Origin: a virus | Reading direction: 5' to 3' (one strand) | Virus record (IMG/VR): IMGVR_UViG_3300045988_118866 | Coordinates: 74,950-138,949 of that record | DNA: 64,000 bases | In this document: piece after piece, positions 22,554 to 43,419 of the stretch | Position numbering within the stretch: the first letter of the stretch is position 1 | Layout of the letters: each line of letters begins with the position of its first letter | Made by a program: the position numbers and the translations under genes | Notes under the pieces: model-generated | The model's database searches: none | Told to the model about the DNA's origin: nothing | What the model saw: the letters and a program-made list of their open reading frames with translations, nothing else

Positions 22554-22555
22554 TA

Positions 22556-22608
22556 AAAAAAATAAGGGAATGAAACAAAAATAGTTTCATTCCCTTATTT
22601 TTTTTATC
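22556..22608. terminator. bidirectional rho-independent terminator at convergence of early (+) and cargo/late (-) transcription
   Basis: Hairpin aagggaatgaaac-aaaaatag-gtttcattccctt, with an A-run upstream and a T-run downstream. Confidence 0.7.
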
Positions 22609-23445: not shown

Positions 23446-23458
23446 TTAAAAAACCTCC

Positions 23459-23881: not shown

Positions 23882-23902
23882 AATTTAACCTTCTTTCTTC
23901 AA

Positions 23903-24784: not shown

Positions 24785-24810
24785 AACAAAACCTCTTTCT
24801 ATAATTTTAT

Positions 24811-25059
24811 TTATTTAAACCCCATTTGGGACTTAAAACTATTAAACTCTTTATCGAAATTTAAACCTCTTGATTCAAACAAATTACGAGCAAATTTTTC
24901 AATGTCATCGGATTGACCGTTCCGTGCCATTTGTAATAAATTATTGCCCATTGGCGTTCCGCCCATTTGATTTTCAAGCATAGATAAAACTAATTGCTAT
25001 GGATTTTGACCGTTTTTAATCATAGCAATAATTTGCATTGGATTCATTGATTGTGTCAT
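24811..25059 (-). CDS. small hypothetical protein (one in-frame TAG)
   Basis: ATG at 25059 follows RBS aaggagag. 82 aa, MTQSMNPMQIIAMIKNGQNPQQLV... Confidence 0.45.
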
Positions 25060-25071
25060 TTGAAACTCTCC

Positions 25072-25521
25072 TTAAAAATTAAACTGCGGTTTGCTCTCTG
25101 TTGGTTGCTATTGAGCTGGCTAACCCGATTCCTAAGACGGCGCAACCGCGTTATTGGATCCCATGATCTATGCAAATACTTCTTTAATAGAAGTTAAGGT
25201 AGTATTAAATTCTTCTCGTGTTATATAGTCATTATTAGGCTAAGAAGAATTTGGGATTTCTTTTAATTCATACATATTAATAGAAGCTGTTCCATCCATA
25301 TTTATTTGTTTTGTATAAATTCTACGATTAGCATAGTCAGGAAAATAAAAAACTGAACCATCAAAATCTATATTCATAGCTCGAACCTCTTCTAAAGAAG
25401 CAACGGGTCTAATTCGCTATGCAGTATTGTTTTGAATCACAGGTGTAGCAGTTGTTCCATAAATAGGTCTATTATTACCTATTGGATACTACTGCTATGG
25501 ATAACCATAAGTATTCATGTT
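25072..25521 (-). CDS. Gln-rich hypothetical protein (many in-frame TAG in Q-rich runs)
   Basis: ATG at 25521 follows RBS ggaggtaat. TAG codons are interleaved with CAG/CAA, giving PQQQYP and PSQESGQPAQQQPT. Confidence 0.5.
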
Positions 25522-25602
25522 ATTACCTCCGGAGAAATATAATAATGAAAGGTTTTATCTTTTCCTTTCATTATTATATGACTTTTATTTTGTGTAAATA
25601 TA

Positions 25603-25630
25603 TTATAATTACTGACACTTTTTGGATAAA
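25603..25630 (-). promoter_or_regulatory. candidate promoter for the minus-strand cargo cassette (TTTATC-16-TATAAT on minus strand)
   Basis: Read on the minus strand: TTTATCcaaaaagtgtcagtaatTATAAT. It lies upstream of the RBS of gene 25072..25521, after a hairpin at 25545-25573. Confidence 0.3.
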
Positions 25631-25680
25631 AATTTCACTTACTTAAAATTAAATAAATTTGACACTTTATAATTTTTTAT

Positions 25681-25709
25681 TTTACAATATTTAAAAATTT
25701 TTGTATAAT
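25681..25709 (+). promoter_or_regulatory. promoter of the LytTR regulator gene (TTTACA-17-TGTATAAT)
   Basis: Extended -10 TGTATAAT at 25702-25709. There is also a TTGACA at 25659-25664. Confidence 0.45.
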
Positions 25710-25761
25710 TATAATATAGAAAGAATATAAAGATAGAAAAATTTTTTCTAAAATAAACAAA

Positions 25762-26478
25762 ATGAAGGTGATTAAAATTTTTATCGTAGGTGTTTGCGAC
25801 AATAGCGATTAGCAAAATGACTCATTGGAAGAAATAATAAATCAGTATTTTAAAGAATTTAATTTGCCGGGATATGTATATAAATTTACTGATCCTAGAA
25901 AATTAATTGATTCTAATATTGATTATGATGCAATCTTTTTAGGGATTACATTCAAAAAAATGGATGGTATTGAAATAGCTCATCTCTTAAGAACAAATGG
26001 GTATATTGGAAAAATAATTTTTGTTTCCTCTCAAATAAATTATGGAGTAGCTTCTTATGAAGTAAAGGCATTTAACTTCGTCAAAAAACCTGCTAATAAA
26101 GAAAAAATTTTTTCTATTTTACATGAAGTTAGAGAAGAAAAAAGACGTGAATATAAATATTTAGACACTCCTAATGGAGAAGTAAAAATTGATTTGGGTA
26201 AAGTATTATATGCTGATATCCAAAAACGAAATTTGTGTTGCCATTTAGAAAATGAGGTTCTAAATAGTAAAACTTTAAAAACTTCTTTTGAAAATTATAT
26301 AGGAACTTTAGTTTATCATCCAGATTTTGTCTTTATCCCACCAAGTTTAATTATTAATTTAAATCAAATTAAAATAATGAATAAAGACAATTTAACTTTC
26401 AAAAATGGTGAAGTTTTATGCTTTCCTAAAAAAGGCTATGAGGAAATTAATCGACGATGGAAAAATCCATTTAGATAA
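25762..26478 (+). CDS. LytTR-family transcriptional regulator with degenerate (pseudo-)receiver domain
   Basis: ATG at 25762 is in frame with ORF 25825..26478 through the TAG at 25810. N-terminus MKVIKIFIVGVCDNSD... is receiver-like, but the phospho-acceptor position reads FLGI instead of FLDI. The C-terminal LytTR DNA-binding domain reads VKIDLGKVLYADIQKRNLCCHLENE...FIPPSLIINLNQI. Confidence 0.7.
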
Positions 26479-26480
26479 AA

Positions 26481-26525
26481 AAAATAAGGGAGACATTCAG
26501 TTAAGAATGTCTCCCTTATTTTTAT
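26481..26525. terminator. bidirectional terminator (aagggagacattc-agttaa-gaatgtctccctt) between LytTR gene and minus-strand holin-like gene
   Basis: Perfect 13-bp stem flanked by A-run and T-run. Confidence 0.65.
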
Positions 26526-26932
26526 TGTTTTAAATCATCACTTGGAGTACGATAATTATTTACTGTAGACTCGATCTTCTCTTGTAAATATTTATTCAAA
26601 TCACCAAAAGCATTATTCAAATACTCTTTAGCATCATCACTTAAAATGAGCAATACTGCTTGATAAGTTCTCTAAAATGCTTCTTTTTGAGCAGCTTCAT
26701 CAAACTTACCTTGTTCTTTAAGAGAATTTACATAAGTTTGATTGGTGGCAATAACACAATTAGTAATTGTGTCAGTAGCCATTTGCACATATTTATTTAA
26801 AATATCATTATTAGTTTTCTTTTGTAATTCTGCACTTTTTGCTTTAATCCAAATAACTATAAAAGTGGTTAAAGCACCAAGCATAGGAATCAAACATACT
26901 TGGAATAATTGATTAATTAAATTTTGATCCAT
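26522..26932 (-). CDS. small membrane protein, holin-like candidate (one in-frame TAG)
   Basis: ATG at 26932 follows RBS aaaggagat. TM helix LFQVCLIPMLGALTTFIVIWI. Reads through the TAG at 26672 to a TAA at 26522. Confidence 0.4.
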
Positions 26933-26966
26933 AATATTATCTCCTTTTTCTTACAATAAATTTATA

Positions 26967-27941
26967 TTAAATCCAAGCCACGGGGACAGGTGTCCAAGTA
27001 CCTGTGGTAGAAGTTCTATATTTAAAAGTGCCAGTTTTAGCAGTTGTATCTATCCATACTAAAGGAGCAGTTCCAGACGCAGGTTGTGTTGATCCAATAT
27101 AAATAGAATAATCAGTAGTAGTTCCAACTGTAGGAGGAATGGCATTGTCAACGTATTTTTTAGTTACTAAATCCATATCCTGTGTTGGAGTATATGTATT
27201 ATCCATAGTAATTTTGCCATCTTTAGTTAATATATTAGATTTATTTTTATAAATCAAATTCTCGGTAGAAGAATTAATTTTTTCTAAAGCTTTATTTAAT
27301 TCAGTTTGGATACGAACAATATCTTCATCAACATTAACTCCTACTGCTCCTTCAATACCCATTACAGTTAGAAAATCTCCCTACTCACCTTTCCAACCAT
27401 TTAAAGTAATAGTATTACCATTTATAGTATAATTTTCTGTTTCCTAAATCATAATACCATTATAATAAAGAGTAAGAGTACTACTATCACTAAAATTAAA
27501 AGGAATATTAAAAACCGTCTAATCGGCACTAACATCAAAAGTATATTTGTTTATGATTTTTCCAGCAATATCAGCAGGACAAGTAACAGGATATCCAATA
27601 CCATTAATATTTATTACTCCAATTTGTCCTCCAGTATCATCAATATTTTCATAAGATACTTCTGATAATTCTGCTAAATTACGACCATTTTCATCATAAG
27701 TGGCATAATCCGCGTGATCAGTATATAAATTTAATCTTTTATCCGCAGTATCAATATAGAATTTATGAGTATCTTCTGTAAAATAAGCATAACCTTCTTT
27801 GATAGGAGTGGTATCTTTTACTGGTGTAAATAAAGTTTTTCCAGAATCTAAAGATGGAAAGGGTATTTTTCCATTAACCGCTTTCGCATCATAGGTGACT
27901 AATCTATCTGAATCACCTTTTAAAATTTTAAATAGAGCCAT
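26967..27941 (-). CDS. tail fibre-like protein (N-terminal FK.LKG motif; three in-frame TAG)
   Basis: ATG at 27941 follows RBS aaggagtta, with TGA upstream in frame. ORFs 27519..27941 and 26967..27362 join through TAGs at 27519, 27444 and 27381. Fibre-like motif TKKYVDNAI. Confidence 0.55.
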
Positions 27942-27973
27942 CGATCTTCAATAACTCCTTTCTATAAATTAAT

Positions 27974-28012
27974 GGTATAGAATTAAATTAATAATTCTAT
28001 ACCATTTGGTTT
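27974..28012. terminator. symmetric hairpin aatggtatagaatta-aa-ttaataattctataccatt followed by T-rich tract
   Basis: 15-bp inverted repeat between genes 28015..28635 and 26967..27941. Confidence 0.45.
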
Positions 28013-28014
28013 AT

Positions 28015-28635
28015 TTATTCGAGAACAATCCAATAAACATCCAACCCATTACCACCAACAAATCCCTCTAAACGCGCTAAACGCTCCCAAATTTGTTGTA
28101 CTACTTGGCTATCATCAATTACGTAATAATCTTCTTCTTTTACAATAGAATCTAAATTAAGTTTAGAATAAACCTAAAGACTTGCTGGTAATGTATTTAA
28201 ATTATATAATAAATTATTAGAATCTTTTTCTATTTTATAAAAAGTTATCATATAATTCAAAGTGCCAGATTTCTTAGTAGCGCTATAATTTAAAACCCAA
28301 GGAAAAATAATTTTATCTTTATGAGTTAAAGTATCATAATATGGGACTGGATAAATACGTTTTTCATTATCAGCATTAATATACTAAATAATACACATCA
28401 TATTGGTTAAATCCATAGTGTCAAAATATCTATTTATTTCAAAATAAATAATTTCAGCAGCGTGATCGCCTTCAACTGTAATATAACTATTTTCATTATT
28501 AATAGTTCTTGAGTTTAAATCTATCTAAACCAACTTTTCATCTTCGGGAGCTGGAAGAGCAGGATACTTAACTGGAAAATTTTCATCTTGTATTTGATGT
28601 AAAACACTATAATAATCAGTTGGATTAGTTATCAT
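28015..28635 (-). CDS. tail/baseplate-associated protein sharing a paralogous domain with gene 28641..30323
   Basis: ATG at 28635 follows RBS gagggg. Motif TVEGDHAAEIIYFEINRYFD. TAA at 28015. Dense TAG content means no piece appears in the ORF track. Confidence 0.5.
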
Positions 28636-28640
28636 TTATC

Positions 28641-30323
28641 TTACCCCTCAATCTTAAAGGTTCCTGGTTGCGATTTTCTTTCACCCTTCTGGATAATTAC
28701 AGCTCCTTGAGTAATATTTTCATCTACTTCTGTTGAATTATCAGAAGTTGTCTTTAGAGTAGTACCCTACGCATTTTTCCATTGATATTCATAAATACCA
28801 TTGCCTAACTCACTAGTATTAGTGACTGTAACAATATATTTTCCATTCTCAATTTTAACTTTTTCGTCAATGACAGGTTTTAAATTAGTTGGGTCAAAAT
28901 AATTGGTGAAACTAATTGTAGGATAATCTATATTATCTTTATTTTTATAACCATGAACTGATAAAGTATAATTATCCTCTTCAGTTAAAGTTACAGTTTT
29001 TTCAGTGCTAAAATCAGAGCCATTCTTTTTCCAAAGATAAGTACACTGAACGCCTTCATCATTCTATCCAACAGCAGTAATAGTATTAGAAGAACCATAA
29101 TAACATCCATTATCAGGAGAAGGATCAAGAACGATTCTAAAATCTTCACTGATTCCTTCAACAGAAATAGCTAATCCAGCCCATTTAACTTCTTTACTTA
29201 CTTGATTCGCGGTTGCGCCAAACGCGGTGACACTATAGCTTCCACATCCATCAACTTCACAGTATTGAACTTTTAGGTAGAGGTCATTTTTCTTAGCAGT
29301 ATAGTTTTCAAGATTAATATCACTACTACTATTAATATAAGAATCTCCATTTTTAGTAAAATAAGTTAATTTCTCATTGTAGATCATATCTCCACTAAAA
29401 ATACTATTATCTTCAATAATTTTTTTATATTCATAACCAATGCCACTTTTTAATTCAGTATTAGTTCCTCTATAATTACAAATCCATTTATATTCAATTG
29501 TAGTATTATCTGGATTATTTAAAGTATCATTATAAGCTAAAGCATATAATTTATCACCTGTTAAATAAACAGATTTATTGTTTAAAATACTTGTCAAGAA
29601 AGCAACATTATCAGGAACACCAAAACCAGCGGATTTCTTTGAATCAATTAGACTTTCTAAGTATCCAGTCAAATAATCAACAGGTTGCGCGGTAACTAAA
29701 TCTTCATCAATATCTAAAGTTTTATTAATAACCATTTGCGCTGGTAATGTATTAAATACATACATTAAATTATTATTATCTTTTGGATTCTTTTTAAAGA
29801 AAATAATAGAAAACTATAAAGTACCAGATTCACTAGTCACTTCATCACTAATTTGCCATCCAAAAATTAATTTTCCAGCAGTACCAATATCAGGACAAAT
29901 AGCTTCAGAATAACCTTGAACTTGATCGTTTAAATAATACTGAATATAAATCTTAATATCATCAGCCGCCAAATCTTGTAAATCAAAATATCTATCAATT
30001 TGAAAATAAATTGTTTCCGCCAAATGATCGTTTTCAACAGTAAGTAATTGTGTTTTTCCAAATTCTTTAGTTAATTCAATTTGACGAGTATCAGCATTTA
30101 TATTTATAATAGGTTCATCTAAAGGTATACGAAGAACAGATGGATCTAATTTCTTCATTTGAACGATACCAGTGATATTACTATAATAGTCTTCAATAGA
30201 TTTTATTTCAACGATTTTTCCATTAATGTTTTTTATTGAGTTATCTTTAGCTAAAGTATTGATTTTCTTTTGAAGTTCTTCCCATTTAGCTTGTTCGATA
30301 ACGCTATCATTTTTAACTATCAA
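28641..30323 (-). CDS. tail/baseplate structural protein (about 560 aa)
   Basis: TTG start at 30323, 8 nt after RBS aaaggaaga. ORFs 29814..30323 and 29064..29765 are joined by the TAG at 29814. The frame continues to a TAA at 28641. Motif TVENDHLAETIYFQIDRYFD. Confidence 0.55.
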
Positions 30324-30348
30324 ATCTATCTCTTCCTTTCTAAAAAAA

Positions 30349-30395
30349 TTAGGTTAAATAGTTTCTTTTCCTATTTAACCTAATTTTTTTTATAT
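30349..30395 (-). terminator. hairpin (aggttaaatag/ctatttaacct) + T-run on minus strand
   Basis: Located between the small gene 30420..30620 and gene 28641..30323. Confidence 0.45.
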
Positions 30396-30419
30396 TTAAA
30401 TCAATGTATTCTGGCCTAT

Positions 30420-30620
30420 TTAAACCTCATACCATTCTTCTAATTCATCTTCGGGAACTAAAGGAGAGATAGAAAAGAATTCTTTTCCATCTCTCGTTAA
30501 TTTTTTATTATAATCCGCAATTAATCTATATAATTTAGTCGCAGGCACTCCTGCTAACTATATAGAAGATTCAATAATGCCATTAGAACCCATATATCTA
30601 TAAACAATTTCTTTTTCCAT
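30420..30620 (-). CDS. small hypothetical protein (66 aa, one TAG)
   Basis: ATG at 30620 follows RBS gaggat. TAA at 30420. Confidence 0.4.
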
Positions 30621-30629
30621 ATTTTATCC

Positions 30630-33600
30630 TCACTTTACAATAGGTTCTTCTTCAAAGTTTGCTCTATTAGATATCATTGCTTCATAAATTCTATGTAAAG
30701 TATTCTTAACACTTTCACCATAACTAGCAACATAATAATATCTAAAACGACCTGTATATCCATTAGCGACAGTAGGCATACCTGTTTGACGAGGGGTAAA
30801 AATATTACCAGAACTATCTGCCGTAATCTATTTAATTGGATGCTTATTAGTGCCAATCTATACTTGAATAGCACCAGTATAACCCTTAAACTAATTACCA
30901 GACATATTTAAAATTGTCTAACCAGAGAACGCATTTACATCAAAGTTAAGAATACCATCTTTACATCCCTCTATAATTAAATTATAAGGAGAATAAGACC
31001 CCATCTTACTTTGATAGAATGCTTGAGCTCCAAAAGTCAAACCTTCCGTAGAAGAAGAATAAGGAATTATATTATTACGGCTTAAAGGACATTGATAAAA
31101 TGCCTTAATGCCAATTTTCTTTAAACAATCACTGAACTAAAAATATTCCAATCCACTATCTAAAGTAAAAGCATAATCATCTATTACAGAAATTTTGTTA
31201 TTGTCTTTTGGAGCAAAAAATACTGCTGTAATATTAGGATTTACTTGAATACCCACTGCCGCAGATGGATTAACTTGACTGTATCTAATTCTTGTAATTG
31301 GCTAGCCGTTATAAATTGTAGGTAAAGTGATTTTACCTTTTAAATTCTTAGCTAAATCAGTCATTACAAATGATAATTCTCCGTCAGAATTTATAATATC
31401 ATAATATTTATGAGTAGAATCATTAATTAAGATATTGTCATAAACACTAACTGGTTCTCCAACAGCATAGAATTCGCGGTCGGCATAAGCTAACTATCTT
31501 GTTAAATCAATTTTAACTCCATCTTTATCAGCCCATCCAGTCTGTTTCCAAGTCCATTCTAAAGAATTTTCTCCATTTGGCAAATCTGTCACTTCTGTAT
31601 TATTAAAATAATAAAATTCATCTGGAACAGTAATTCTTTCACCATAATTAAATACTTTCTTTACGGTTGAATCATTGACGACGCGGTCGCCATTAACAAA
31701 AGTAATTGTATAAGATTTACGTTCAAATCTTGCTTTAAAGATATAATCTATTTTATTAGACTGTAAGGATAAAGAACCCCAATTATCTTTTAAAACCGCA
31801 TCTTTTTCATTTACATCTTTTCCAACTGTAATTACCAATTCACCAGTATCATCTTCCCAACCTTTAAAATTATAGGTTGGCATTTTTTCTTGTAAGCTAC
31901 CAAAAGAAATATAAGTTTCGCTTGAAGAATCCGTAGGATTGTCAAAAAACTTAGAGCTTGATAAAGGTAATTTCTAAGTCTTTAAAATTTCTTGAGTTAA
32001 TACTCCATCTGCGTCTTCTTGTTCGAGAACAAATTTAGCAGAATATTCTTTCTTAACATTTTTCATAAAAATAGTTAGATTAGGATAAATACTCTATAAT
32101 TCCTCTTGAATTACGTGTTCTTCTATTTCTTGAGTATTTTCAATGTAAATAATGCCAGTTATATTAGGATAAGTCTAATTAATACCTTTAAAGTTAGTCG
32201 GGGCTCCATTATACAAATTACGTAATAAAGTATAATCAATAATTTTACTATGAATATCATTATATCCATTTACATTATTATCATAATAATAAATTAAATT
32301 ATTTTTTATTTCACTCGGAGTAATTTTACTTACATCTTCTGCGTTAATTTTTTCTAGTTGGAAATGCCCGTTATCTTTATAATACTTAATATTAATACTA
32401 TCTAATTCCACTTTATCATCATTTAATAATCTATAAGGACTCCATTGGACATTAGTTAAATTAACTTCGCATCCAGTTAAATTACTCTTTTCACAACCAA
32501 GATAATAACGTCTTAATAGTTCATAAGAATAATAATCTAAATTACCACCGCGAATATCAAAAGTTTTTATACTCGTTGTAATAACGTTATCTTCAACATC
32601 AGTTAAATTTTTAATATACAATCCTTTATTTTCTTCCGCAACTTCAAGACGATTAGTGATAGGATTAACTGTAGGATATACATATTTAGTAACTAATTTA
32701 GTCAAAAGATTCGCTTCTATTAAACTTAAATAATTCGTATAATCAGTTAAATACAAAGTATTTAAAGCAACGCCTTCAGCGAACTAAACTTTAGTGACAT
32801 TAGAACCAGTATTTCTAAAGTTTTCTAATTTTTCACTTTTAGTTAAGTCTAAAGCTACTGGATTTAAGAATCTAATATTACAAAGATTCATTTCTTTTAA
32901 TAATGGCATACCTTCACTGGGATAACTCCAATTGTTTACGTCATTGTTTTTATATTCTTTTCCTTCTTCAGAAAGACCATCATATCCTAATAACAAATCT
33001 ACTAATTTATTAGCCTTACCTCTAATAAATAATTCTTGGAAATATAATTTACTTAAATCTCCAAGAGATTTCATCTATTCTAAGCCATAAATATAATATA
33101 ATTGTTCACGGTAATTACCACTTGACATAATACCTTTCTTTAAATCTGGAGCAGTAAATCTAACAGGAGTTAAACCATCATATTTCTAAGATGGGAAATT
33201 TGCTCCATCAGTTCCAACAGTAACATAAGAACGACGGGCAGGCTCCATCTTAATCCAATATTCACCATCAAACATATGATTTTTAGTACCAAATTCTTTT
33301 CCATTTTTCCAATATTGAGAATTAGTTATTAAATTAGTTAAGCCTTGATTATTAGTTCCTTCAATCCATTCATCAGATGTAGTATTTGGATTATTAGCAG
33401 AAATACGGCTTATGATATTATTACTACCACTATCTCCAGAATATTCATCAACCGTTAACCAAGAGTCAATATAATTAAGACGGTTGGTTAAAAACTGCGA
33501 ACGATAAAGATTGCGGTCGCCCTATAAAGCATAGAAATACTAATCACTTTCTATTTCGTATTGGCCACCATTAGTAATACGACCAAAAATAGTATCTTTT

Positions 33601-36600
33601 GCTGCTGAATTAGTCGGAATAATATATTTATATTCTTCATCTAAATCTAAAGCGATGATAGGACGCTCTCCCTATACAGCATAACTACCTGGGAATAAAG
33701 AAGGATCTGTTTTATACCATTTATCAACAACATCACTTTTTTTAGAAGAAGTACCAGATTCTTTCTTAAAAATTTGTTTTACTTGGCTCTAATCATAAGA
33801 TCCATTTGGCTTACCCATTAATTGTTTATACTTATCAATAATTTTACTCTTAAAGAAAGTATAGAAGTTATTCCATAATACACTATCGTTAGTAGAATAG
33901 CTACCATCTTCAGTAGCATCAACATAATATTCAAATGATGGAATACCAGTATTGTTAATACCTAATTGAGTATCAATATCATAAAAAATAGGATACCAAA
34001 TATAATGCTGAATTCCAGTAACTTTTTCAACATTTCCTTTTTGCGGTCCCCAAGAAGCAAACATCGCATTTTTACCACGAGAGTCATAACATTCAAAAAT
34101 TTCAGTCATTAAAAAATAAGTTGCTAAATACTCAATATTAAAATAATTACTTAATTCATTTTTGAATTTGGCTTGACGATATTCTTTACTATCTTTTGTA
34201 TAAGTAACTGAATTATAAGTTACTGGTGTAGATAATAACCATTTATCATCAATTTGATTTTCATCTTCAATAAAAGAATAATAAGTGGTATAAGGATTAT
34301 ATTTTTCAGAATCTAGAACATAAATTTTATTATCCTAATCCTATAAAATATAATATTTATTTATCTAATAAATTTTATTATCATCATCAGTTAATTTAAT
34401 TATGCTATAAACTTTACTGTCTTTATTATAAACATAATACTTTTCTTCTGAATCAAATTTTTCTGTAGCAATTTTATAAGTTTCGCTACCGCTTTCATCA
34501 ACTTTATCAAATAAATAATATTTATTTGGTTCATATTTAGCTTCGGCTAAATCTATTTCTTCATACTTACCCATTGAAGGAATTTCATATAAAGTTCCAT
34601 CAAAATCAATACTACAATCTAAACAAGTGCTCCAAACCCAACTTACGGCATCCTCCCAATTTGACATTAACGCAAGAAGTAATTCACGAGAAGTATTTCT
34701 ATTTTTCATATCGAATATAACAGGATCTTGTCCTGGATTTGTGATAGTCCACTATTTATGTTTAGTTCCTGTAGTTTCATCGACAATTGTTTCTGATTTT
34801 AATCTACTTGGAACTGTATTATTTATTCCATCAGTAAATTCAATTATTTTATCTGTATCTGTAGCTTCCGCAGAAACACAGTTAAATAATTTATCTGCGA
34901 TTAAATCATCATTAGAATTATATCTAACTTCAAAAGAATCGGCAACCATTGGAGCTCCACCAGAAGTTAAATAGCCTGTTGAATTATTATCATCCATTAA
35001 CGGAGGTCTAAAAGATAATTTATATCTATTCCAAGGATCACGGAAAGAACAATACGTTCTTGAATTATTCTAAAATTCCCAACATTCGGTGATATCTCTT
35101 ACCCTTGGAGTTCCTTCAATCTAATTCTATAAAACTTTTTTGTTAGGTTTAAACCCATAACATTCGTCGGAGCCTTTATCCAATAACATATTATATTTTC
35201 CAATATAAATGATATCATTTTCGCTATATTCATTATCATCAGTAGAAGGCCAATGGAAAGCTAAAACAGGGTATCCCTTTACAGAAGTTCTATAATCATC
35301 AATATCTCCATACAAGTCATATTTATCAAAAGAATTTTGATAATCTTCCACTGGATGCTTAGAATAAGTTTCATTAACTAAATTGGCGAATCCTCTATTA
35401 TAATCTCCAGAAGATTCCATGAAGTCAATCTTTAAAGTAAATTTAGTAGTGCCAACAGTATTGTTATCCATGTAAAAGAATTCAAGATAACTTTTACTTT
35501 TTGTATTTAGACTATCATTAGCTTCTTCTTCTTTATAAATAGATTCAAAAGGTCCTCTATTCATAAACATAGCTTCTTTACATTTAGCTTTGTAATTACG
35601 TCTTGGATAATTACGTGAAGAAGTTCCCTAAACCTAAAATGTTGCTCCGTCAAAAAGAGTGATAAAGCTAGGACAATGATGTAAATAATAATTCTATACC
35701 GCAGTATAAATTACTTCATTAGTCTTACTATCTACAACCGGTTTCCAACCTTCTTTTTCAACTATCTTATCAAGCTCACCTTTAGCATAAGCAGTATCTA
35801 ATGGAACATTTACGAATTCCATAGTTCCCTTTTGAGCACCATTATCTTTAGAGTAGGGAAGTCTATTATCCGTACTTTCACTATTGTTTTTAGTAGTCTT
35901 TAAAATAATATATGGCATTAATGGTTTATCAGTGTGTCCAATATTATAATCAAGCATTTTACGATAAGAAAATACATAATCGTTTAAAATAGTATTATAA
36001 TCATACAAATCTTTCTAGTCCCATTGATTAATGTCTTTTTTATCAAAAGCATAATTCTAAACTACATCAGGAATAGTTAAACTAGCATCATAAACTCTAA
36101 TACTATAAATATCAATATCACAAGTATTAGACATAAATTTAATAACATCAGAGTCAACTGTCCAAGCAGAACTACCAGAACGACGAGCTACGCTTGTTAA
36201 TACTCCATTTAAGAAAATTTCTAATAACTTAGAATCTCCACCAGTATGACTAGATTTAGAGCTTGTATAAACAAATGTTAAATATAACATTTCATCTTCT
36301 ACAAAATCGACTGAGACGGTTTCTTCATCACCGTTAGCAGTAAATGTAGCATCTTGTGGGCTAAAATAAATACCCAAAGGACTTTTTAAAGATCCATAAG
36401 CACAAACAAGATTATTTAAATTGAAATCTTGAGCTAAACCATTATAAGTCAATTCATCATAACTTGGAGCTTCTGGATGTTCTGGTAAATATTTTTTTGT
36501 TAAAAATTCATCATAATTAACATAAGTAGTCTAATCTTTAAATGCATTCCAAGCATCTTTATCAGTCCAAGACTTTCCAGATTCATCGCTTGCTTTATAA

Positions 36601-38324
36601 CGAGTATATTTAGTAATTACTTTAGAATAATTTTGTGGGTTTCTAATTTTAAATTGAATTTCAATACTGTGTGTAGGAGTGGAAGAACTATTATCAAAAG
36701 ACAATTGTCCAATAGGAATAGAAACTTCAGCACCATTACTAACTCTTAAACAAGTAGTATTGTTATCATCAAAAACCCAACCATTATTATACCAGTTAAA
36801 GTTTTTAAATTTTGCGTATTTACCATTAATTTCTAATGTTTCACGACTTAATTTGCTCTCAGAATTAGAACGTCCAGTAGCAACGAAATTAACTTTTAAA
36901 TCATTACTTCTAGCTAATTCCATATTCCTTAATGGGTCTATTTTAATTATAAAAGTAAAATTACGAGAATAATCATATGGCTCAGTTCCTACTTTAATTG
37001 TATAATAAGAACTGTCATTAACAGAAAGATTAGTAATTTCCCAGTATTGCCATACAGTCTAATCAGCAATTTCACGAGTACTTAATAAAACACCATTTTT
37101 ATATAAGCTAACTTTTGCGGTCGTCACATTAGGATCATATACTCTGAAAGGAATTTTAATAGTTTCATAAGTGTAATATTCTGTTTTAAAATCACCAGTC
37201 CAGATCAAAGGAGTTTTACTACTTCTATCTAAAATAACAATTTCTTTTTCAATAAAATCAGTACCATTTCCTTTTTCACCACTGTTAACTAAATAAAGTT
37301 TAGCCTTAATAGTATGTTCTCCATGAAGAAAATAGTTTGCTAAAGTCATTGTAGAATCATTATTATTATTTAAAATAACAGTATTTTTTGTTATAGTAAT
37401 ACTATCTTCATTTCTGGTATTGGTGCTACTATACTCTTTATCTAAAATTAAATAATTATCAAAATAAACTTCAATAGCACTATTTACTTTATCAGACATT
37501 AGCCAAGTAACATTAATTTGGCCATTATCAAAAGGTAAATCATTATTAAATTTGCTTTCTTGCCATTGAAGAGTTAATTCATGTGTAGTTACGAATTGAG
37601 TCTTTTTAGTAGTAGAAAAATGATTATTAGTGGGATCACTATTCTTACTAACAATAAACTCAATTTCATGTGTAGAAGAATTTCTTAAATAAGCAGAAAT
37701 ATCAGTAGTAATTGGTTTATTATGTTGATAAGTTTTTGCTTCACTATAAATATCTTCCCAAGAACCATCACTCTTTTTCTATCTAATAGTTAAAATACCT
37801 TCGACAGAATCAAGAACTGGTTCTCCATTTATTGTTCTACATTTTACGAGTGCGGTTACGCTTACTGATTCACCATTAAGTACATCAGTAGGACCGTCTA
37901 AGGTTAAGGAAACAGTACCATTTACCTTAACTTCTTGATCCTGGTTTCCGCCACCTGCTAATAATTTTTCACAACTTGCGACTTCTTCTTTATCATCATT
38001 TAATTTAAATTCTTTAATGCGATAAAATGCTCCATCGCTATTTAAAATCAAATCATTTACATGAGGATTAGAACTTGATAAATTAGATAAACGAATTGAA
38101 TATCCGATTGGATTCTCATCCGCATCATAATCAATTCCGACGTCTTTTTCAGTTCCATAAATTACCTAAACGCCACTTGAGCCTATTGGTATTTTATTTT
38201 CAGTCGCAGTATCTAAATAAACTCGTCCGGTATCTGTTGCCACATAAAAATATCCATCAGTTTGTGGATATGCTTTTATCTTTTCTTCTGGACCCTAAAC
38301 GGGACGAAAATGTATTTTAGACAT
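30630..38324 (-). CDS. giant tail fibre/adhesin-like structural protein, about 2564 codons
   Basis: ATG at 38324, 8 nt after RBS aaaggagta. I scanned this frame codon by codon on the minus strand and found no TAA or TGA until the TGA at 30630. Fourteen ORF-track pieces (37779..38051 down to 31494..31883) all lie in this one frame, separated only by TAG. Confidence 0.55.
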
Positions 38325-38345
38325 AATTTACTCCTTTCTATCCTA

Positions 38346-38390
38346 AAAAAAATATGGGGAAAGAATATTTCATCTTTCCCCATAAAAACA
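38346..38390 (-). terminator. hairpin atggggaaaga-atatttc-tctttccccat flanked by A/T runs, immediately upstream of the giant ORF RBS
   Basis: 11-bp GC-containing stem; the T-run lies on the minus strand. Confidence 0.5.
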
Positions 38391-38442
38391 TTCTTCTATA
38401 TAAAATAGAAAAAATTATATTTATTATTAAATAGTATTGCCC

Positions 38443-40104
38443 TTAGAATGTTCCCCACTCCAACTCAAAACTAACTTTAGCATCATCAGCCGCAGTCGCC
38501 GCAGAAACATTAACCTTTAGGCTATTACTGGCGAAAACAAGTGGTTTGCCTTCAAGATCAGCACCAGCAACTTTAAGATTAGGAATTAAAGTATCAGTAC
38601 CATTTACCGTATAATCTGCATTAGCAATCTCTTGATGAGTATTTTTTACTGTAAAAGTCTTTTGAGTGGATTTAATTACATGACCTTGAGCATCAATTTC
38701 AGTTGGTTCATTAATAACAATAGTCTACTCATCAGCATAATCTTGAGAAATTGGAGCATTTACAGTTAAAGTATTACTATGTTTAATAGTAACTTCTTTA
38801 GAATTCGTAGGGTTATTACTTGAATCTTTTATAACTTTCGTCTCTAAAGTGATACCATTTTCGCCTTTAAGAGCATACTCTAAAAGTTCTTTAGTAGGAC
38901 CAAGTTTAATAATAAAACCAGTAGTGCTCTCATCTTTAGCTCCTTCAACCTCAGTAACAGGATCATCAGCAGAAGGAACATAAGTCCAGTTAATAGTGCC
39001 AGTAATAACTCCATCAACCTCTGTACCAGAAGCAATGATTAAATCACCAGGACGTAAATAATGACCGTTCCAAAGAGTATCTTCAGCTCCAGTATAAATA
39101 AAGGTATTGCCTTCAGCAATTTCAGTGATATCAGAACTATCATAAGTAATAGCTCCATCTTTAACTTGGAATCCGCCGCGGAATACCATAGCGTTGATAG
39201 TTCTAAGTTGATTATCAATATCTTGCTTACTATAAACTGGAAGAGTTAAAACACCATCTTTAAATTTATAACTACCATCCTTACCTTCTAAAGCAATTTC
39301 TGGATCAATATCAGCAGATAAAGTTGTGCTATTACTAGTTCCTTCAACGCCAGGACCGCTAATAGAAGCGGTAAAACCAGTACCAGTAGCGTGATTAATT
39401 ACATTGATATCATTAACTGCTTTATCGACACTTAAAGTATAATTACCCGCAGAGTTTTCGGCAATATTAACATTACTACCGGCGATAATATTAAAATTAC
39501 CCGCATCAGTATCAGCATTTTTTAAATTAACATTTAAAGTTTTTTTACTTAAAGAAGAACTTAATTGATAATTAACTCCTGTTAAACTAAGTTTAATAGT
39601 GTCTACACCTTTATCATTAGTTGCAGGAATTACTTCAACTTGAATATAATCACTACCAATAATATCATAAGTCTCAGTAATAACGTTACCACTACTATCA
39701 GCAATAGTATTAGTTATAGAAGCTCCATTGGCATTATTGGGACTAGTATTTACTGACACATTACTATTCTTTTTATCAGTATCCAAAACAGTATCAGTAT
39801 TTGTTTGAATCCAGCCTTTACCATTATTAATACATAAAATATTTTTATCTTTTACATAATAAAATTCGCCTGCTGTATTTTGACTAAAACTTTGAGGCAA
39901 ACCTGCGGTAGTATCAACTACATTAATACCTTGATTTACAGGAACACAATTATTTTCATCTACACCATAATAAAGACGGCTTGGTTTTTTATAGTCTTCA
40001 GCGGACTTATTGTCATTAATTACTAAATAAAACGCACCAGGTTTATATCTACCTGCCACCTTTTCAAATTCGGCTTGAGAGCCTTTTAAAAACTTAACGT
40101 TCAA
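38443..40104 (-). CDS. tail fibre-like protein (553 aa)
   Basis: TTG at 40104, 7 nt after RBS aaaggagtg, with TGA upstream in frame. Fibre-type N-terminus MNVKFLKGSQAEFEKV...GAFYLV. TAG at 38725; TAA at 38443. Confidence 0.6.
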
Positions 40105-40220
40105 TCTTTTTCACTCCTTTAAATATCAGCCCAAGAAACAGTTTGTTCAACTGCTTCAACACGAGTTACCAAATTATCAGGACCTTTATCTACTAAATAT
40201 TTATTAGCTATATTAATTGT

Positions 40221-40700
40221 TTCAATATCTCCCTAAGTTAATGTTCCTACTGGCATATCAATCCATGTACCAGCATCGGTAAGAATATGTTTTCCTTTAG
40301 TTTCGTGTAAAGAAACTGGGACTAAGCCTGGAACTGTACCCTTAAAAACAGGAGCTAACTTAGCTAAATTTTCTTCCGTAGATAATTTTTCAACAATAGA
40401 ATTAATTAAAGTCTCATTATTTTCTAAACCCTAATTAACCCATTTTTTTTGTTCTTCATCATAAATTAAAACTTGATTTGTTTTAACTTCATTAAGAACA
40501 ATATCACTTAAATCGCTTAACTTACCCGCGGAACTAATTCCACCGCAAATTAGACGACTACCTAAATAAAGTTCTCCAGAAGAATCATTTTCCTCATAAA
40601 TAAAATATAAAGTATCATTGTCTCTTTTAGCCCCTAAACTTTCAAAAGCAGTTTTAGAACCTCTGACAAATTTTACATATTTATTTAATGTATTAGGCAA
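40221..40700 (-). CDS. short tail fibre-like / fibre-assembly protein (159 aa)
   Basis: TTG at 40700, 6 nt after RBS agaaaggag. N-terminus KFVRGSKTAFESL...GELYLG is the same motif family as genes 38443..40104 and 26967..27941. TGA at 40221. Confidence 0.5.
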
Positions 40701-40750
40701 GATAATCGACTCCTTTCTATTATTTATAAAATCTTTTTAATCAATACTAA

Positions 40751-40780
40751 AAGGGTTTGGCCTATTAAGACCAAACCCTT
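40751..40780. terminator. hairpin aagggtttgg-cctattaaga-ccaaaccctt
   Basis: 10-bp GC-rich stem directly after the TAA (40789) of gene 40789..43059. Confidence 0.55.
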
Positions 40781-40788
40781 TATTTAAA

Positions 40789-43059
40789 TTAAGTTGTTTC
40801 AGATGGAGTATCAGTATTGTTTGAATTTTTCTTTAAAGCATCAACATCAGTTCTTAATCCAGTAATTAAATCATTTAATTCTGTATCTTTATCCTATAAT
40901 GCTTTAATAGTTTTATTCAATTCCGCGTTTTTATTTTGTAAAGCTACAATTAAATCAAACATTCCTGCTACCGTTTTAGCTCCATTATCTCCAGAAGTCG
41001 CATTGTATGTAAGACCACGGACCGCGCTTTCATTTAATTTGCCACTTGCTAAAGTATTTATATCAGCTAATGTGCCAGTATAGCCACCTAAAAGATTAGT
41101 TTTTAAAGTATTTAAACTACTCATAGTAGCAACTTTATTACTACTACTATAAGTTCCATCAAAAGTAATAGGTAAATCACTTTCTTGTAAAGCGCTTCTT
41201 GAAACGGTTATTAAACCATCTTTCTCTTCTACTGCCGTAACAAATTGTTTATCTACTTTATTATCAGCTTTGTCTAATTTATCAATAGCCTATTTAACAC
41301 TATAAGCAACTGAATTGGTTGTAGATACAGTTCCATTCAATACATCAATTTTATCACTTAAATTGCTAATGCTATCTCTATCAGCATTAATTCCCTATCT
41401 TAATCCATAAAGAGTTGGAATAGTATCTTTACCAAAACTATTATTAGATTGGCCTAATAAAGTATTATATTTACTATCACTATTATCAATCAACTTACTG
41501 ATACTATCATTAAGAGTTGTATCTTTAGTAATAGTATTTAATTTATCGTTAATAATATACCCTTCGCCTAATGCTAAAGTTCCTAAGTAAGATTTCTCAC
41601 TACTTAAAGCTCCAGTAGTATCAGTAAAACTTAAAGAAGTAAAAACATTACCTTCTTTACTATTAGTATAAGAACCTTTTGGAATACTAACTGAAAATGT
41701 TTCTTCTTTTACAATATGTCCCGCTCTATCAGTAAATAATTTAGGTAAAGTAATAGAAGAACCAAAAGTACCAAAATCAACATCTTTACCATAACTTTTT
41801 GATGCTTTACTTACATTCAAATTATTATGAATAATTTTAATAACTCCATTATTTTTTTCAATATTAGCATCTACTGAAATCAAATTATCTCCTTCGATAG
41901 TTGCAGATTTCATATAATTATCATTAATATCATTATCAGTTTCAGTAGAAAAATAAATAAGCTTATTAGTATCTAATTTATCTAAACTCATTTTTCTATT
42001 AAGGGTATTTAAAGCACCTTTAATATTAGTTTTATCAAAATTAGTAGCGGAATCATCGCGATTTTGACCATAAAGCAAGTCATAGGTATCACATACCACA
42101 TTACCAAGAGCAGGAAGCTTTACAACAAGAGATTTGCGATCGTAGCCGTCTTCGATCGGCTCACCAACAACATTATCCTATTCTACATTATAATAAAATC
42201 TATATCCTGACTAACTTAATTTATAATTAATAGTATTTTCTGTCGTATTATCATAAGAGCGTTTTGTCTTACTAAATCCTTCTTTATTATAATAAATATT
42301 ATTATCGTCTAAATCAAGCTGGAAATTAGTAGGAACTCTTAATTTATAAAGTAAATTTGTGCTACTTTGATCTGTGGTTATCGCAGGTCCAAGTTCACTT
42401 TCTAAATAGTAAACGCGCCCCTCGGTTTTAGTATCGCTATTATCTAATTTATAATGACTATCAGCTTCATCATAATAATAATATTTACCTGGCTAATATA
42501 CAACGCTAGCATCATCAACTGCTACATATGGATCTTGAGGAAGTAATGGATAAATTGAAAAATTTGGAACAACAGTATTTAATTCAGCAATCTAAACATA
42601 AGTCTCTTGATTATTGATATATTGTTTTATCCAAACTGTAGAATCATAACCGCGACCATAAACAGGATAGTCTATTTGATAATTTAAATTATACTATTCA
42701 TCATCAACTCTATCATTAGTAATTCTAGTGAGATATTTCCACTCTTTAGTCCCACTCGCGGTTACATTTCCCACATATAAATACCATTGGTTGCTTCTTT
42801 TAACTTTTACTAATTTTCCATTTTCACATAAAATAATATGAGAATCACTTCTATCAGAAGGATCATCATACATAATTTTATTATCAAGATATCCTACTAA
42901 ATATTGAGTGGCGGGAAGACCATATTCAACTAAAACATAGCGTCCTAAAAATATACCATCACTCGTACAGCTATTATCCATTTGAAGTCTATTACTGTAA
43001 ATTTTATCAAAAGTAAAGGTTGTTTTTGAAGTATTAGTTATATTACCATAAAAACCCAT
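40789..43059 (-). CDS. large tail structural protein (757 codons)
   Basis: ATG at 43059, 7 nt after RBS gaggaggg. I scanned the frame with no TAA/TGA until 40789. It contains ORF-track pieces 42694..43065, 41395..42099 and 40894..41124. Confidence 0.55.
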
Positions 43060-43061
43060 TA

Positions 43062-43406
43062 TCAACCCTCCTCAAATAAATAATCTATAATAAGATATGC
43101 TTCTTGATTTTGATTAATCAAATTCATAGAGCTTCTATCGAATTTAATCAAATTAATAGTAGAAATACCTTCTAAGTCTAATTCATAAATACCAGTATTT
43201 CCAACAATAATAGCATTAGTGCTATCATTTAAATAAAATTTCGTTCCTGGCAAAGTCTAAATGCCTAATTGAGTAATTAATACATTTTGGTTATTATTTT
43301 TAAATGCGGTTCCTGTAATTAATTTACTCATATTAACATCACTTGGATAGTTCTTAGAATTAAGACCTTCACCATAATAACGAATTTGTCTTATCTTTCT
43401 TGCCAT
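43062..43406 (-). CDS. small structural protein (114 aa)
   Basis: ATG at 43406 follows RBS aaggagga. Its TGA at 43062 overlaps the RBS of the next gene. Confidence 0.45.
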
Positions 43407-43419
43407 TTAGTGGTCCTCC

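What the first reader, a model, noticed from the sequence alone, without database searches (positions are those of the whole stretch)
30630..38324. 2564-codon fibre/adhesin-like ORF with its own upstream hairpin
This is the second giant frame, 7.7 kb, with no TAA or TGA. It starts 8 nt after a strong RBS and about 20 nt after a terminator-like hairpin. It follows three proteins that share fibre-type N-terminal motifs. A protein this large at the distal end of a tail module is a candidate multi-domain receptor-binding or depolymerase protein.
Basis: seen in the sequence. Interest (0 to 1): 0.55.

Follow-up and report, generated by a model that had tools for sequence, protein, structure and literature searches.

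The report
Giant kinase-bearing phage tail adhesin
This is one real 2,564-codon late gene of a stop-codon-recoded phage, encoding a giant tail adhesin-like protein with a spore-coat-type (CotH) kinase domain in its middle; the protein family is widespread but nobody has studied what it does.

Summary
The frame has 2,564 sense codons, 34 in-frame TAG, no TAA and no internal TGA. By base composition that is about 1e-72 likely by chance. TAG reads as Gln: all 5 codon differences from a 96%-identical orthologue are TAG<->CAA/CAG.

The RBS and the upstream terminator-like hairpin (38384..38353 plus T8) are there.

It is one gene. About 60 homologues of 2,300-2,850 aa align along most or all of it (about 30 as one uninterrupted match). 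They come from phage contigs of about 165-197 kb.

Domain order:
- a fibre-type N-terminal motif;
- a beta-rich, probably Ig-like region (weakly supported);
- a LamG-like lectin region;
- an LRR solenoid;
- two InlB-type B-repeats;
- a BspA-type LRR C-terminus, which is exchanged between lineages.

The best-annotated relative is the about 2,245-aa DGR target of Bacteroides Hankyphage. That gene sits right after the tape measure, baseplate hub and minor tail genes.

The fibre/adhesin reading is supported. The depolymerase reading is not. The kinase domain was missed. I rate it a non-DGR variant of a known but uncharacterised kind.

The parts
30630..38324 (-). Single 2,564-codon late gene (ATG 38324, TGA 30630-30632), translated with TAG = Gln (34 TAG codons)
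38353..38384 (-). Terminator-like hairpin (12-bp stem, 8-nt loop) followed by T8 at 38345-38352. It lies between the stop of the upstream fibre-like gene (38443) and this ORF's RBS.
38331..38337 (-). Shine-Dalgarno AAAGGAG, 6-nt spacer to the ATG
37965..38324 (-). aa 1-120: N-terminal fibre-type attachment module (FRPVxGxE...DGYxYFATDTGxIYLD). It is conserved across the whole family, and a similar short motif occurs in neighbouring fibre-like proteins.
   Evidence: A distant member (P0063) has a weak Mtd_N match here, and another (P0076) carries BppU_N instead.
36915..37964 (-). aa 121-470: beta-rich region, probably Ig-like or CBM-like spacer domains (weakly supported; the least conserved part of the N-terminal half)
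   Evidence: weak match to the chitinase A N-terminal domain, E 0.013; CBM_35_2, E 0.004, below cut-off
35973..36914 (-). aa 471-784: LamG/concanavalin-A-like lectin-type domain (NFNWYNNGW ... IRVYDASL), assigned by homology
   Evidence: the aligned region of P0074 matches PF13385 at E 6e-06 (26.9 bits, cut-off 27.6). The window protein itself gives no Pfam match.
33255..35972 (-). aa 785-1690: CotH-type atypical protein-kinase fold. Family-invariant motifs: QGTSS (aa 899-903), K965 in FTLKID, D1414-x-R-x-K-N1419, and Y1448-D-x-D1451.
34215..35027 (-). aa 1100-1370: lineage-variable insertion between the two lobes of the kinase fold, including Tyr-Tyr-rich beta repeats
32049..33254 (-). aa 1691-2092: leucine-rich-repeat solenoid
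   Evidence: pLDDT 87.9, regular short strands; LRR_EndoS in P0074, E 5.5e-4; weak LRR match in the PDB
31425..32048 (-). aa 2093-2300: two beta-grasp 'B-repeat' modules (Y-x-F-x-GW type), like the InlB B-repeat / Listeria-Bacteroides repeat
   Evidence: 2y5p_D, probability 1.00, TM 0.68 on the target. Pfam Flg_new reaches only E 1.1.
30633..31424 (-). aa 2301-2564: BspA-type LRR domain plus a C-terminal helix. This is the probable ligand-binding end. Together with the B-repeats it forms the roughly 460-aa block that is exchanged between lineages.
   Evidence: LRR_5, E 1.6e-4, below cut-off; 15 of 19 members match, best 2.3e-47; PDB 4fs7, 2e-35; 4gt6, 6mlx, 4fs7; mosaicism
30420..30620 (-). 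66-aa ORF that starts 10 nt after the stop, with its RBS overlapping the stop codon. It is co-conserved with the giant gene and is a possible assembly factor (inferred).

Best explanation
The ORF is one late gene of a roughly 193-kb phage that reads TAG as glutamine. It encodes a giant modular tail (baseplate or fibre) protein.

Proposed working of each part:
- The N-terminal roughly 120 aa dock it to the tail tip, in the same way as the neighbouring fibre-like proteins.
- A beta-rich spacer and a LamG-type lectin domain follow.
- Next comes a CotH-type atypical kinase domain whose catalytic-type residues are invariant across the family. It is therefore probably an active phosphotransferase.
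- The C-terminal half is an adhesin-like arm: an LRR solenoid, two InlB-type B-repeats and a BspA-type LRR. It makes contact with the host surface. Its last roughly 460 aa are swapped between phage lineages to change specificity.

The protein is a non-DGR relative of the giant CotH-kinase DGR target of Bacteroides Hankyphage. In that protein a hypervariable C-type lectin takes the place of the BspA-type LRR.

Shown here: gene integrity, the TAG = Gln coding, the domain folds, motif conservation, tail-module position and C-terminal mosaicism.

Inferred: presence in the virion, receptor binding by the C-terminus, kinase activity and the kinase substrate. My preferred guess is phosphorylation of a host envelope component or of virion or host proteins before release.
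For: Gene and code.

Tail context:
- The tape measure (52356..60590) and tail proteins (phrog_1887) lie upstream, and a tail-fibre PHROG match lies downstream.
- Gene order is the same in L002 and L003.
- In Hankyphage the homologue follows the tape measure, baseplate hub and minor tail genes and carries the DGR variable repeat.
- A distant homologue, P0076, starts with a BppU_N baseplate-anchor domain.

CotH fold:
- The AF2 model of the 96%-identical orthologue has pTM 0.66.
- Pfam CotH matches 3 of 14 distant members, best E 1.6e-8, and P0074 scores above the gathering cut-off.
- NCBI names members of P0074's cluster 'CotH kinase family protein'.
- Invariant columns cluster in QGTSS, K, DxRxKN and YDxD.
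- aa 1401-1500 is the most conserved 100-aa window at every divergence level.

Adhesin arm:
- The AF2 model has pLDDT 87.9.
- Foldseek finds BspA-type LRR surface proteins and the InlB B-repeat.
- The family profile matches PDB 4fs7 at 2e-35.
- LRR_5 matches 15 of 19 members.

Mosaicism: the group at about 70% overall identity is 83-98% identical over aa 2101-2564. The group at about 65% is only 29-67% identical there.

Literature: giant phage or DGR proteins with CotH, LamG and LRR have been noted and described as unstudied (PMC8008677; PMC5758913; bioRxiv 10.1101/2020.04.01.020958; bioRxiv 10.1101/2024.11.15.621889).
Against: - There is no proteomic or structural evidence that the protein is in the virion.
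- The window protein itself gets no significant Pfam CotH or LamG match. Only LRR_5 appears, below its cut-off. The domain assignments therefore rest on family profiles, transitive homology and models of a 96%-identical orthologue.
- Sequence profiles did not reach PDB CotH.
- The CotH model is only moderately confident (pLDDT 66.7), and the catalytic loop itself is below pLDDT 50.
- I mapped the invariant Asp residues onto CotH D228/D251 from motif pattern and spacing, not from a residue-level alignment.
- A kinase at the tip of an extracellular tail would have little ATP available.
- Among close relatives the gene is no more variable than its neighbours.
Confidence: 0.55

Rival explanations
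1. It is the same giant tail adhesin, but the CotH-like domain is not an enzyme. It would serve as a rigid scaffold or as a binding module, in the way that Mucorales CotH proteins act as invasins by binding a host receptor.
For: - The domain would sit outside the cell, where ATP is scarce.
- Fungal CotH proteins work by binding (abstracts listed).
- The modelled catalytic loop has low confidence.
- Neither Pfam nor PDB sequence searches match the window protein's own domain.
Against: The columns that stay invariant down to about 20-25% identity are the ones expected of a kinase active site: the glycine/serine-rich QGTSS, a Lys, DxRxKN and YDxD. The block around them is the most conserved part of the protein. 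Pseudokinases usually lose these residues.
Confidence: 0.25
2. It is not an external fibre. It would be a packaged or cytoplasmic host-takeover or assembly kinase. It would act inside the infected cell, for example by phosphorylating virion or host proteins as CotH does during spore-coat assembly. Its place in the tail module would then be incidental.
For: - CotH acts on structural proteins during assembly inside the mother cell (PMC7821199).
- ATP is available only inside the cell.
- Bacillus phage G gp353 and other phage proteins carry the fold.
- Roux et al. proposed manipulation of host signalling (bioRxiv 10.1101/2020.04.01.020958).
Against: - The N-terminal motif is shared with fibre-like neighbours.
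- A distant homologue carries a BppU_N baseplate anchor.
- The C-terminal half is built from surface-adhesin modules.
- In Hankyphage the C-terminus is DGR-diversified, which is typical of receptor-binding proteins.

The two roles do not exclude each other.
Confidence: 0.15
3. It is a capsule or exopolysaccharide depolymerase, or a peptidase tailspike.
For: The protein is large and sits at the distal end of the tail module. The LamG-like region and a weak CBM-like signal hint at carbohydrate contact.
Against: - Pfam, PHROGs and the PDB profile search found no pectate-lyase or beta-helix, glycoside hydrolase, lyase or peptidase match.
- The two models covering aa 785-2564 show a kinase fold and LRR/B-repeat folds only.
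- aa 121-470 was not modelled, so a small unrecognised catalytic domain there cannot be excluded.
Confidence: 0.04
4. The long frame is an artefact: several genes or a decayed pseudogene under the standard code, with TAG acting as a stop.
For: Standard-code annotation in IMG splits it into fragments of 42-193 aa. No suppressor tRNA lies in the window.
Against: - The chance of no TAA/TGA over 2,564 codons is about 1e-72.
- About 60 homologues of 2,300-2,850 aa are conserved across the TAG positions along most or all of the protein.
- TAG interchanges only with CAA/CAG.
- TAG-rich frames are general in the late genes of this window.
Confidence: 0.01

Closest known systems
Giant CotH-kinase DGR variable proteins of Bacteroides prophages. 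Examples: Hankyphage p00, BK010646 31489..38226; 'category f1' in PMC5758913; PC_00012 in bioRxiv 10.1101/2020.04.01.020958; 'domain group 3' in bioRxiv 10.1101/2024.11.15.621889; NCBI 'CotH kinase family protein' WP_347077360.1.
   Same: - Size over 2,000 aa.
- Same order of LamG-like, CotH-like and LRR regions.
- Homology at E 1e-17 (21-26% identity over three aligned segments), with the same invariant kinase-type motifs.
- Same position after the tape measure, hub and minor tail genes.
- Function untested in both.
   Different: - There is no DGR here. No template/variable repeat pair was found in the window.
- The C-terminus is two B-repeats plus a BspA-type LRR rather than a hypervariable C-type lectin.
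- Diversification appears to come from module exchange.
- The phage is about 193 kb, uses TAG = Gln, has 30% GC and Shine-Dalgarno-rich gene starts. It probably does not infect Bacteroides.
Bacillus CotH spore-coat Ser/Thr kinase (PDB 5JDA; Pfam PF08757)
   Different: - 12% identity.
- Embedded in a 2,564-aa protein.
- A roughly 270-aa insertion splits the two lobes.
- The window protein does not reach the Pfam threshold.
- Substrate and activity are unknown.
BspA-type / internalin-type LRR surface adhesins of gut bacteria (PDB 4fs7, 4gt6, 6mlx; InlB B-repeat 2y5p), and the 'Internalin-like protein' of crAss-like phage cr52_1
   Same: LRR_5-type repeats and beta-grasp B-repeats form the C-terminal arm. 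The cr52_1 protein also matches the CotH-fold model.
   Different: Those are bacterial cell-surface proteins. Here the modules are fused to a phage tail anchor and a kinase fold. The window protein's own LRR_5 score is below the cut-off (22 against 27.7 bits).
Bacillus phage G gp353
   Same: It shares the C-lobe of the kinase fold: 31% identity over aa 1373-1543 (E 1e-13). It is also the top structural match among viral proteins (E 5.8e-12).
   Different: Only the kinase core is shared. The rest of its architecture and its role are unknown.

Membership tests
CotH kinase family (Pfam PF08757; PDB 5JDA) | Sequence match to the family model above the curated threshold | tested here: not met
   The window protein and its 96% orthologue get no CotH match at E <= 1. 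Only distant homologues match. P0074 scores 30.2 bits against a cut-off of 23.8, and 3 of 14 members match, best E 1.6e-8.
CotH kinase family (Pfam PF08757; PDB 5JDA) | CotH-type atypical kinase fold | tested here: met
CotH kinase family (Pfam PF08757; PDB 5JDA) | Catalytic Asp and metal-binding Asp (B. subtilis D228 and D251) retained | tested here: inconclusive
   D1414-x-R-x-K-N1419 and Y-D1449-x-D1451 are invariant in the 14- and 19-member alignments. The equivalence to D228/D251 is inferred from motif pattern and spacing, because no residue-level alignment to CotH could be obtained.
CotH kinase family (Pfam PF08757; PDB 5JDA) | ATP-dependent Ser/Thr phosphorylation | not testable with these tools
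   Needs biochemistry.
Giant phage CotH/LamG/LRR proteins (Hankyphage-type DGR targets) | Over 2,000 aa with LamG-like, CotH-like and LRR regions in that order, and homologous across the core | tested here: met
   The profile search finds 4,413 clusters (at 50% identity), and in the top 150 hits the domain usually lies at about aa 700-1700 of proteins that are mostly 2,000-2,900 aa.
Giant phage CotH/LamG/LRR proteins (Hankyphage-type DGR targets) | C-terminal C-type-lectin variable region diversified by a nearby DGR (template repeat plus reverse transcriptase) | tested here: not met
   No repeat pair involves the 3' end of the gene anywhere in the 64-kb window. The C-terminus is a BspA-type LRR. 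The rest of the roughly 193-kb genome was not examined.
Giant phage CotH/LamG/LRR proteins (Hankyphage-type DGR targets) | Encoded at the distal end of the tail module | tested here: met
BspA-type LRR (Pfam PF13306 LRR_5) | Match above the gathering score | tested here: not met
   The window protein scores 22.0 bits against a cut-off of 27.7 (E 1.6e-4). However, 15 of 19 family members match (best 2.3e-47), and the family profile matches PDB 4fs7 at 2e-35.
BspA-type LRR (Pfam PF13306 LRR_5) | BspA-like LRR fold | tested here: met
   The AF2 model has pLDDT 87.9. Foldseek gives 4gt6 (probability 0.99), 6mlx (0.96) and 4fs7.
Phage tail fibre / receptor-binding protein | Virion-associated, and binds the host receptor through its distal domain | not testable with these tools
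   Only context, domain types and C-terminal mosaicism support it.
Tailspike depolymerase | Right-handed beta-helix or another glycan-cleaving catalytic domain | tested here: not met
   No such match in Pfam, PHROGs, the PDB profile search or the two models. aa 121-784 was not modelled.
Genetic code 15 (TAG = Gln) phage late gene | In-frame TAG at positions where relatives have Gln codons | tested here: met
   All 5 TAG differences from L002 are CAA/CAG. TAG columns are 41% Q against a 3% background.
Genetic code 15 (TAG = Gln) phage late gene | Phage-encoded suppressor tRNA | tested here: not met
   No tRNA in the window. About two thirds of the genome lies outside the window, so this test is not decisive.

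The most novel reading that the evidence does not exclude
The tail arm carries a catalytically active CotH-type kinase, placed between a lectin domain and the receptor-binding LRR. It would phosphorylate a component of the host envelope (a surface glycan, teichoic-acid-like polymer or surface protein) or the phage's own fibre proteins, as part of adsorption or tail maturation. That would be a new class of virion-borne, receptor-modifying enzyme, comparable in role to tailspike depolymerases but working by phosphotransfer. It would be conserved in thousands of gut phage lineages.
Probability: 0.15. Interest if true: 0.8.

Novelty: new variant of a known kind. Interest (0 to 1): 0.45.

Why it matters
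Proteins with this kinase core form a large family: 4,413 clusters at 50% identity, 1,672 of them at E <= 1e-30. They occur in gut and environmental phages and prophages of Bacteroidota, Bacillota and other phyla. Several surveys have noted them, but nobody has tested what they do. A strictly conserved kinase-type active site inside what looks like a receptor-binding tail arm raises a concrete question that can be tested: what does a phage tail do with a kinase?

This instance adds three things:
- The architecture exists without a DGR.
- Here a BspA-type LRR takes the place of the hypervariable lectin.
- Specificity appears to change by swapping the C-terminal module.

It is also a practical reminder. 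Under the standard code the gene is split into meaningless fragments, one of which is annotated as Hcp. Annotation that allows for recoding is needed to see such proteins at all.

Tried and rejected
- Reading the + strand: the frame has 161 stops there, so the ORF is on the minus strand.
- Virion RNA polymerase. I first suspected this because of the size and the recoded, crAss-like look. There is no such match in Pfam or PHROGs, and the fold is CotH plus LRR.
- Direct sequence matches of the window protein to the PDB: none at E <= 1. Neither the domain profile nor P0074's domain reached CotH by sequence at E <= 10. Only the fold comparison did.
- NCBIfam: nothing useful.
- Pfam on isolated segments of the window protein (insert, LamG region, beta-rich region, B-repeats): only sub-threshold hints.
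- Internal repeats: no tandem DNA repeats, and self-BLAST found no repeated protein segments.
- DGR: no template/variable repeat pair in the window.
- Near-identical DNA in deposited phage genomes: none.
Both models are therefore of the 96%-identical orthologue P0001.


Full report
**Observation**

On the + strand the quoted interval is full of stops. Its reverse complement is an uninterrupted frame from ATG at 38324 to TGA at 30630-30632. It has 2,564 sense codons, 34 in-frame TAG, no TAA and no internal TGA.

With this strand's base composition, TAA+TGA are expected at 6.2% of codons. The chance of such a frame is therefore about 10^-72. About 50 TAG would be expected and 34 are present, so TAG behaves as an ordinary sense codon.

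The whole window fits a TAG-recoded phage. Under a TAA/TGA-only stop rule the minus strand from 22.5 to 64 kb resolves into a compact set of long genes with many TAG codons. The + strand replication genes, including a 1,278-aa DNA polymerase with no TAG, a primase and a Sak4-like protein, have few or none.

TAG = Gln is supported directly:
- Against the 96%-identical orthologue on a 192.6-kb contig (L002), 31 TAG are shared and all five differences are TAG<->CAA or CAG.
- Across 59 homologues the columns under the window's TAG codons are 41% Gln against a 3% background. One of them is invariant Gln and another is Gln in 55 of 59.

The RBS (AAAGGAG, 6-nt spacer) and the hairpin are present. The hairpin lies on the minus strand at 38384..38353 with a 12-bp stem, an 8-nt loop and then T8. 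Its z-score is -4.25 against shuffles. It sits just after the stop of the upstream fibre-like gene, so it is best read as that gene's terminator or attenuator. Only about 20 nt separate its T-run from the ATG.

**One gene, not several**

The protein search returned 78 homologues. About 60 are 2,300-2,850 aa long and match along most or all of the protein. About 30 of these match from residue 1-6 to beyond residue 2400 as one uninterrupted alignment, at 33-96% identity. The rest match as 2-5 collinear segments. They are encoded on contigs of up to about 197 kb.

Gene order around the gene is the same in L002 and L003. Standard-code annotation in IMG splits the gene into fragments of 42-193 aa, one of which is named Hcp.

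**Context**

Upstream in transcription order lie:
- a virion structural protein;
- a 2,744-aa tape measure (52356..60590, 72 TAG), which is the 'first giant frame';
- large tail and baseplate proteins (a phrog_1887 tail-protein match in 43420..45726);
- three fibre-like proteins.

Downstream lie a 66-aa ORF, two paralogous proteins and a 324-aa protein with a tail-fibre PHROG match.

A short N-terminal motif ([K/H]F-x-x-G ... G-x-[FY]Y ... D ... Y) is visible in this ORF, in g40119, in g38443 and in g26967. It is weak and has no invariant column. Across the giant-protein family itself the N-terminal roughly 60 aa are well conserved.

**Domain anatomy**

Direct scans of the window protein give little. 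Pfam shows only a sub-threshold BspA-type LRR_5 match near the C-terminus. PHROGs shows two families of unknown function. Family-level and structural evidence resolves the rest.

1. aa 785-1690 is a CotH-type atypical kinase fold.
   - Pfam CotH matches three of 14 distant family members (best 1.6e-8). P0074 scores above the gathering cut-off.
   - Members of P0074's cluster are named 'CotH kinase family protein' by NCBI.
   - The invariant columns of alignments reaching down to about 20% identity concentrate in QGTSS (aa 899-903), Lys965, D1414-S-R-G-K-N1419 and Y-D1449-I-D1451.
   - aa 1401-1500 is the most conserved 100-aa window at every divergence level.
   - The D-x4-N motif plus a downstream acidic motif is the pattern expected for the catalytic and metal-binding residues. 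In B. subtilis CotH, D228Q and D251A abolish activity (PMC7821199). I infer the equivalence from pattern and spacing, because no residue-level alignment could be obtained.
   - A roughly 270-aa, lineage-variable, Tyr-Tyr-rich beta insertion (aa 1100-1370) separates the lobes.

2. aa 471-784 is LamG/ConA-like by homology. The aligned part of P0074 matches PF13385 at 6e-06, just under the cut-off.

3. aa 1691-2564 was modelled with high confidence (43 sequences, pLDDT 87.9).
   - It contains an LRR solenoid and two beta-grasp modules that match the InlB B-repeat (2y5p, probability 1.00).
   - It ends in a BspA-type LRR that matches gut-bacterial surface proteins 4gt6, 6mlx and 4fs7.
   - The family profile matches 4fs7 at 2e-35, and 15 of 19 members match LRR_5.

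4. aa 121-470 is beta-rich, with only weak Ig- or CBM-like hints. It was not modelled.

No beta-helix, hydrolase, lyase or peptidase signal was found anywhere in the protein by Pfam, PHROGs or the PDB profile search, or in the two structure models, which cover aa 785-2564.

**Relatives and what is known**

The best-annotated relative is the 2,245-aa hypothetical protein of Bacteroides phage p00 (Hankyphage). It is encoded immediately after the tape measure, baseplate hub and minor tail protein genes. Its 3' end carries the DGR variable repeat.

Several surveys have noted this class:
- Large (about 2,000 aa) DGR targets with weak CotH and Laminin_G_3 matches (PMC5758913).
- A 2,284-aa viral DGR target with a CotH-like domain (bioRxiv 10.1101/2020.04.01.020958).
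- Variable proteins of over 2,000 aa with CotH motifs, carbohydrate-binding motifs and LRRs (bioRxiv 10.1101/2024.11.15.621889).
- The remark that phage CotH kinases fused to hypervariable C-type lectins 'are currently unstudied' (PMC8008677).

Other evidence on distribution:
- Among predicted viral structures the fold recurs in Bacillus phage G gp353, in an 'Internalin-like protein' of crAss-like phage cr52_1, and in several uncultured siphoviruses.
- A profile of the kinase core finds 4,413 clusters at 50% identity (1,672 at E <= 1e-30). In the top 150 hits the domain usually lies at about residue 700-1700 of proteins that are mostly 2,000-2,900 aa.
- In bacterial genomes and MAGs, relatives occur in Bacteroidales, Chryseobacterium, Prevotella, Clostridia, Bacilli and others.
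- One distant homologue begins with a BppU_N baseplate-anchor domain. This independently ties the family to the tail tip.

**How this copy differs**

- No DGR-type repeat pair involves the gene anywhere in the window.
- The C-terminus is two B-repeats plus a BspA-type LRR rather than a C-type lectin.
- Variation looks modular. The lineage that is about 70% identical overall is 83-98% identical over aa 2101-2564. A lineage at about 65% overall is only 29-67% identical there.
- At short distance the gene is as conserved as its neighbours (95.6% and 90.9%). The small fibre-like gene 26967..27941 diverges fastest (75% and 69%). The giant ORF is therefore not the sole variable locus, and probably not the fastest-evolving one.

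**Mechanism**

The best-supported reading is a tail-tip arm with these parts in order: N-terminal anchor, spacer, lectin-like domain, a probably active CotH-type phosphotransferase, and an LRR/B-repeat/BspA-LRR adhesin arm that contacts the host and is exchanged between lineages.

Virion location, receptor binding, kinase activity and substrate are all inferred. The main rivals are:
- an inactive, structural or binding CotH-like domain;
- a kinase that acts inside the infected cell, by analogy with CotH acting during spore-coat assembly.

Neither rival excludes the adhesin role. The depolymerase and artefact readings are rejected.

**Verdict**

The fibre/adhesin interpretation is supported, the depolymerase reading is not, and the kinase core was missed. 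This is a non-DGR, BspA-capped variant of a widespread phage protein class that has been noticed before but never characterised. It is of moderate interest, mainly because it sharpens the open question of what a conserved kinase does in a phage tail.

Noticed in passing
window 30420..30620 (-): A 66-aa ORF starts 10 nt after the giant gene's TGA, with its RBS overlapping the stop codon. It is 100% identical in L002 and 92% in L003, and it was called as a gene in L002. It may be a fibre assembly factor. A 14-bp terminator-like hairpin (30495..30464) lies inside its coding sequence.
   Followed up: partly
window 26967..27941 (-): This 324-aa fibre-like protein (phrog_2710 tail fibre match) is the most divergent gene of the module among close relatives. 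It is 75% and 69% identical, against 86-100% for its neighbours. It is a better candidate for the fast-evolving host-range determinant.
   Followed up: partly
window 28015..28635 and 28641..30323 (-): The 206-aa protein and the N-terminal part of the 560-aa protein are paralogues. DNA repeats D2 and D3 are 71-79% identical, about 1,560 nt apart, and both proteins share a DHxAExIYFxIxRYFD motif.
   Followed up: no
window 1..64000, both strands: TAG use is strongly skewed. The + strand replication genes have 0 to about 1 TAG per 100 codons up to 20.5 kb (the DNA polymerase has 0 in 1,278); the last two + strand ORFs (21535..22553) reach about 2. The minus-strand late genes reach 2.6 (tape measure) and 5.4 per 100 codons. 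This is the early/late pattern described for recoded phages. No tRNA gene lies in the window.
   Followed up: partly
window 25762..26478 (+): A 238-aa ORF on the opposite strand, inside the late-gene block, corresponds to a gene whose product matches the Response_reg receiver domain (PF00072) in the orthologous locus L002. A response-regulator-like protein is unusual in a phage structural region.
   Followed up: no
window, starts of 41 genes; L003: Strong Shine-Dalgarno motifs (AAGGAGG-type) precede 29 of 41 genes, and the genome is 30% GC. The closest hit in bacterial assemblies is a 163.9-kb contig binned into an 'uncultured Mollicutes' MAG. The host is therefore probably a low-GC Bacillota or Mollicutes-like gut bacterium, not Bacteroides.
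   Followed up: partly
window 34215..34700 (-), aa ~1240-1370; also 40789..43065 and 43420..45726: Tyr-Tyr-rich repeats with a period of about 27 aa (KYYxF...YY...) occur in the insertion within the kinase fold. Similar YY-rich stretches occur in two upstream tail proteins. They match no family.
   Followed up: no
P0001 cluster (IMG members P0083-P0088): Public standard-code annotation breaks this gene into fragments of 42-193 aa. One is named 'type VI secretion system component Hcp', which is an annotation artefact of ignoring the recoding.
   Followed up: partly
P0074 cluster: The Hankyphage-type relative's 90%-identity cluster holds 25,373 member sequences, mostly of identical length (2,262 aa). 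This is consistent with massive DGR-driven point diversification of a single protein.
   Followed up: no
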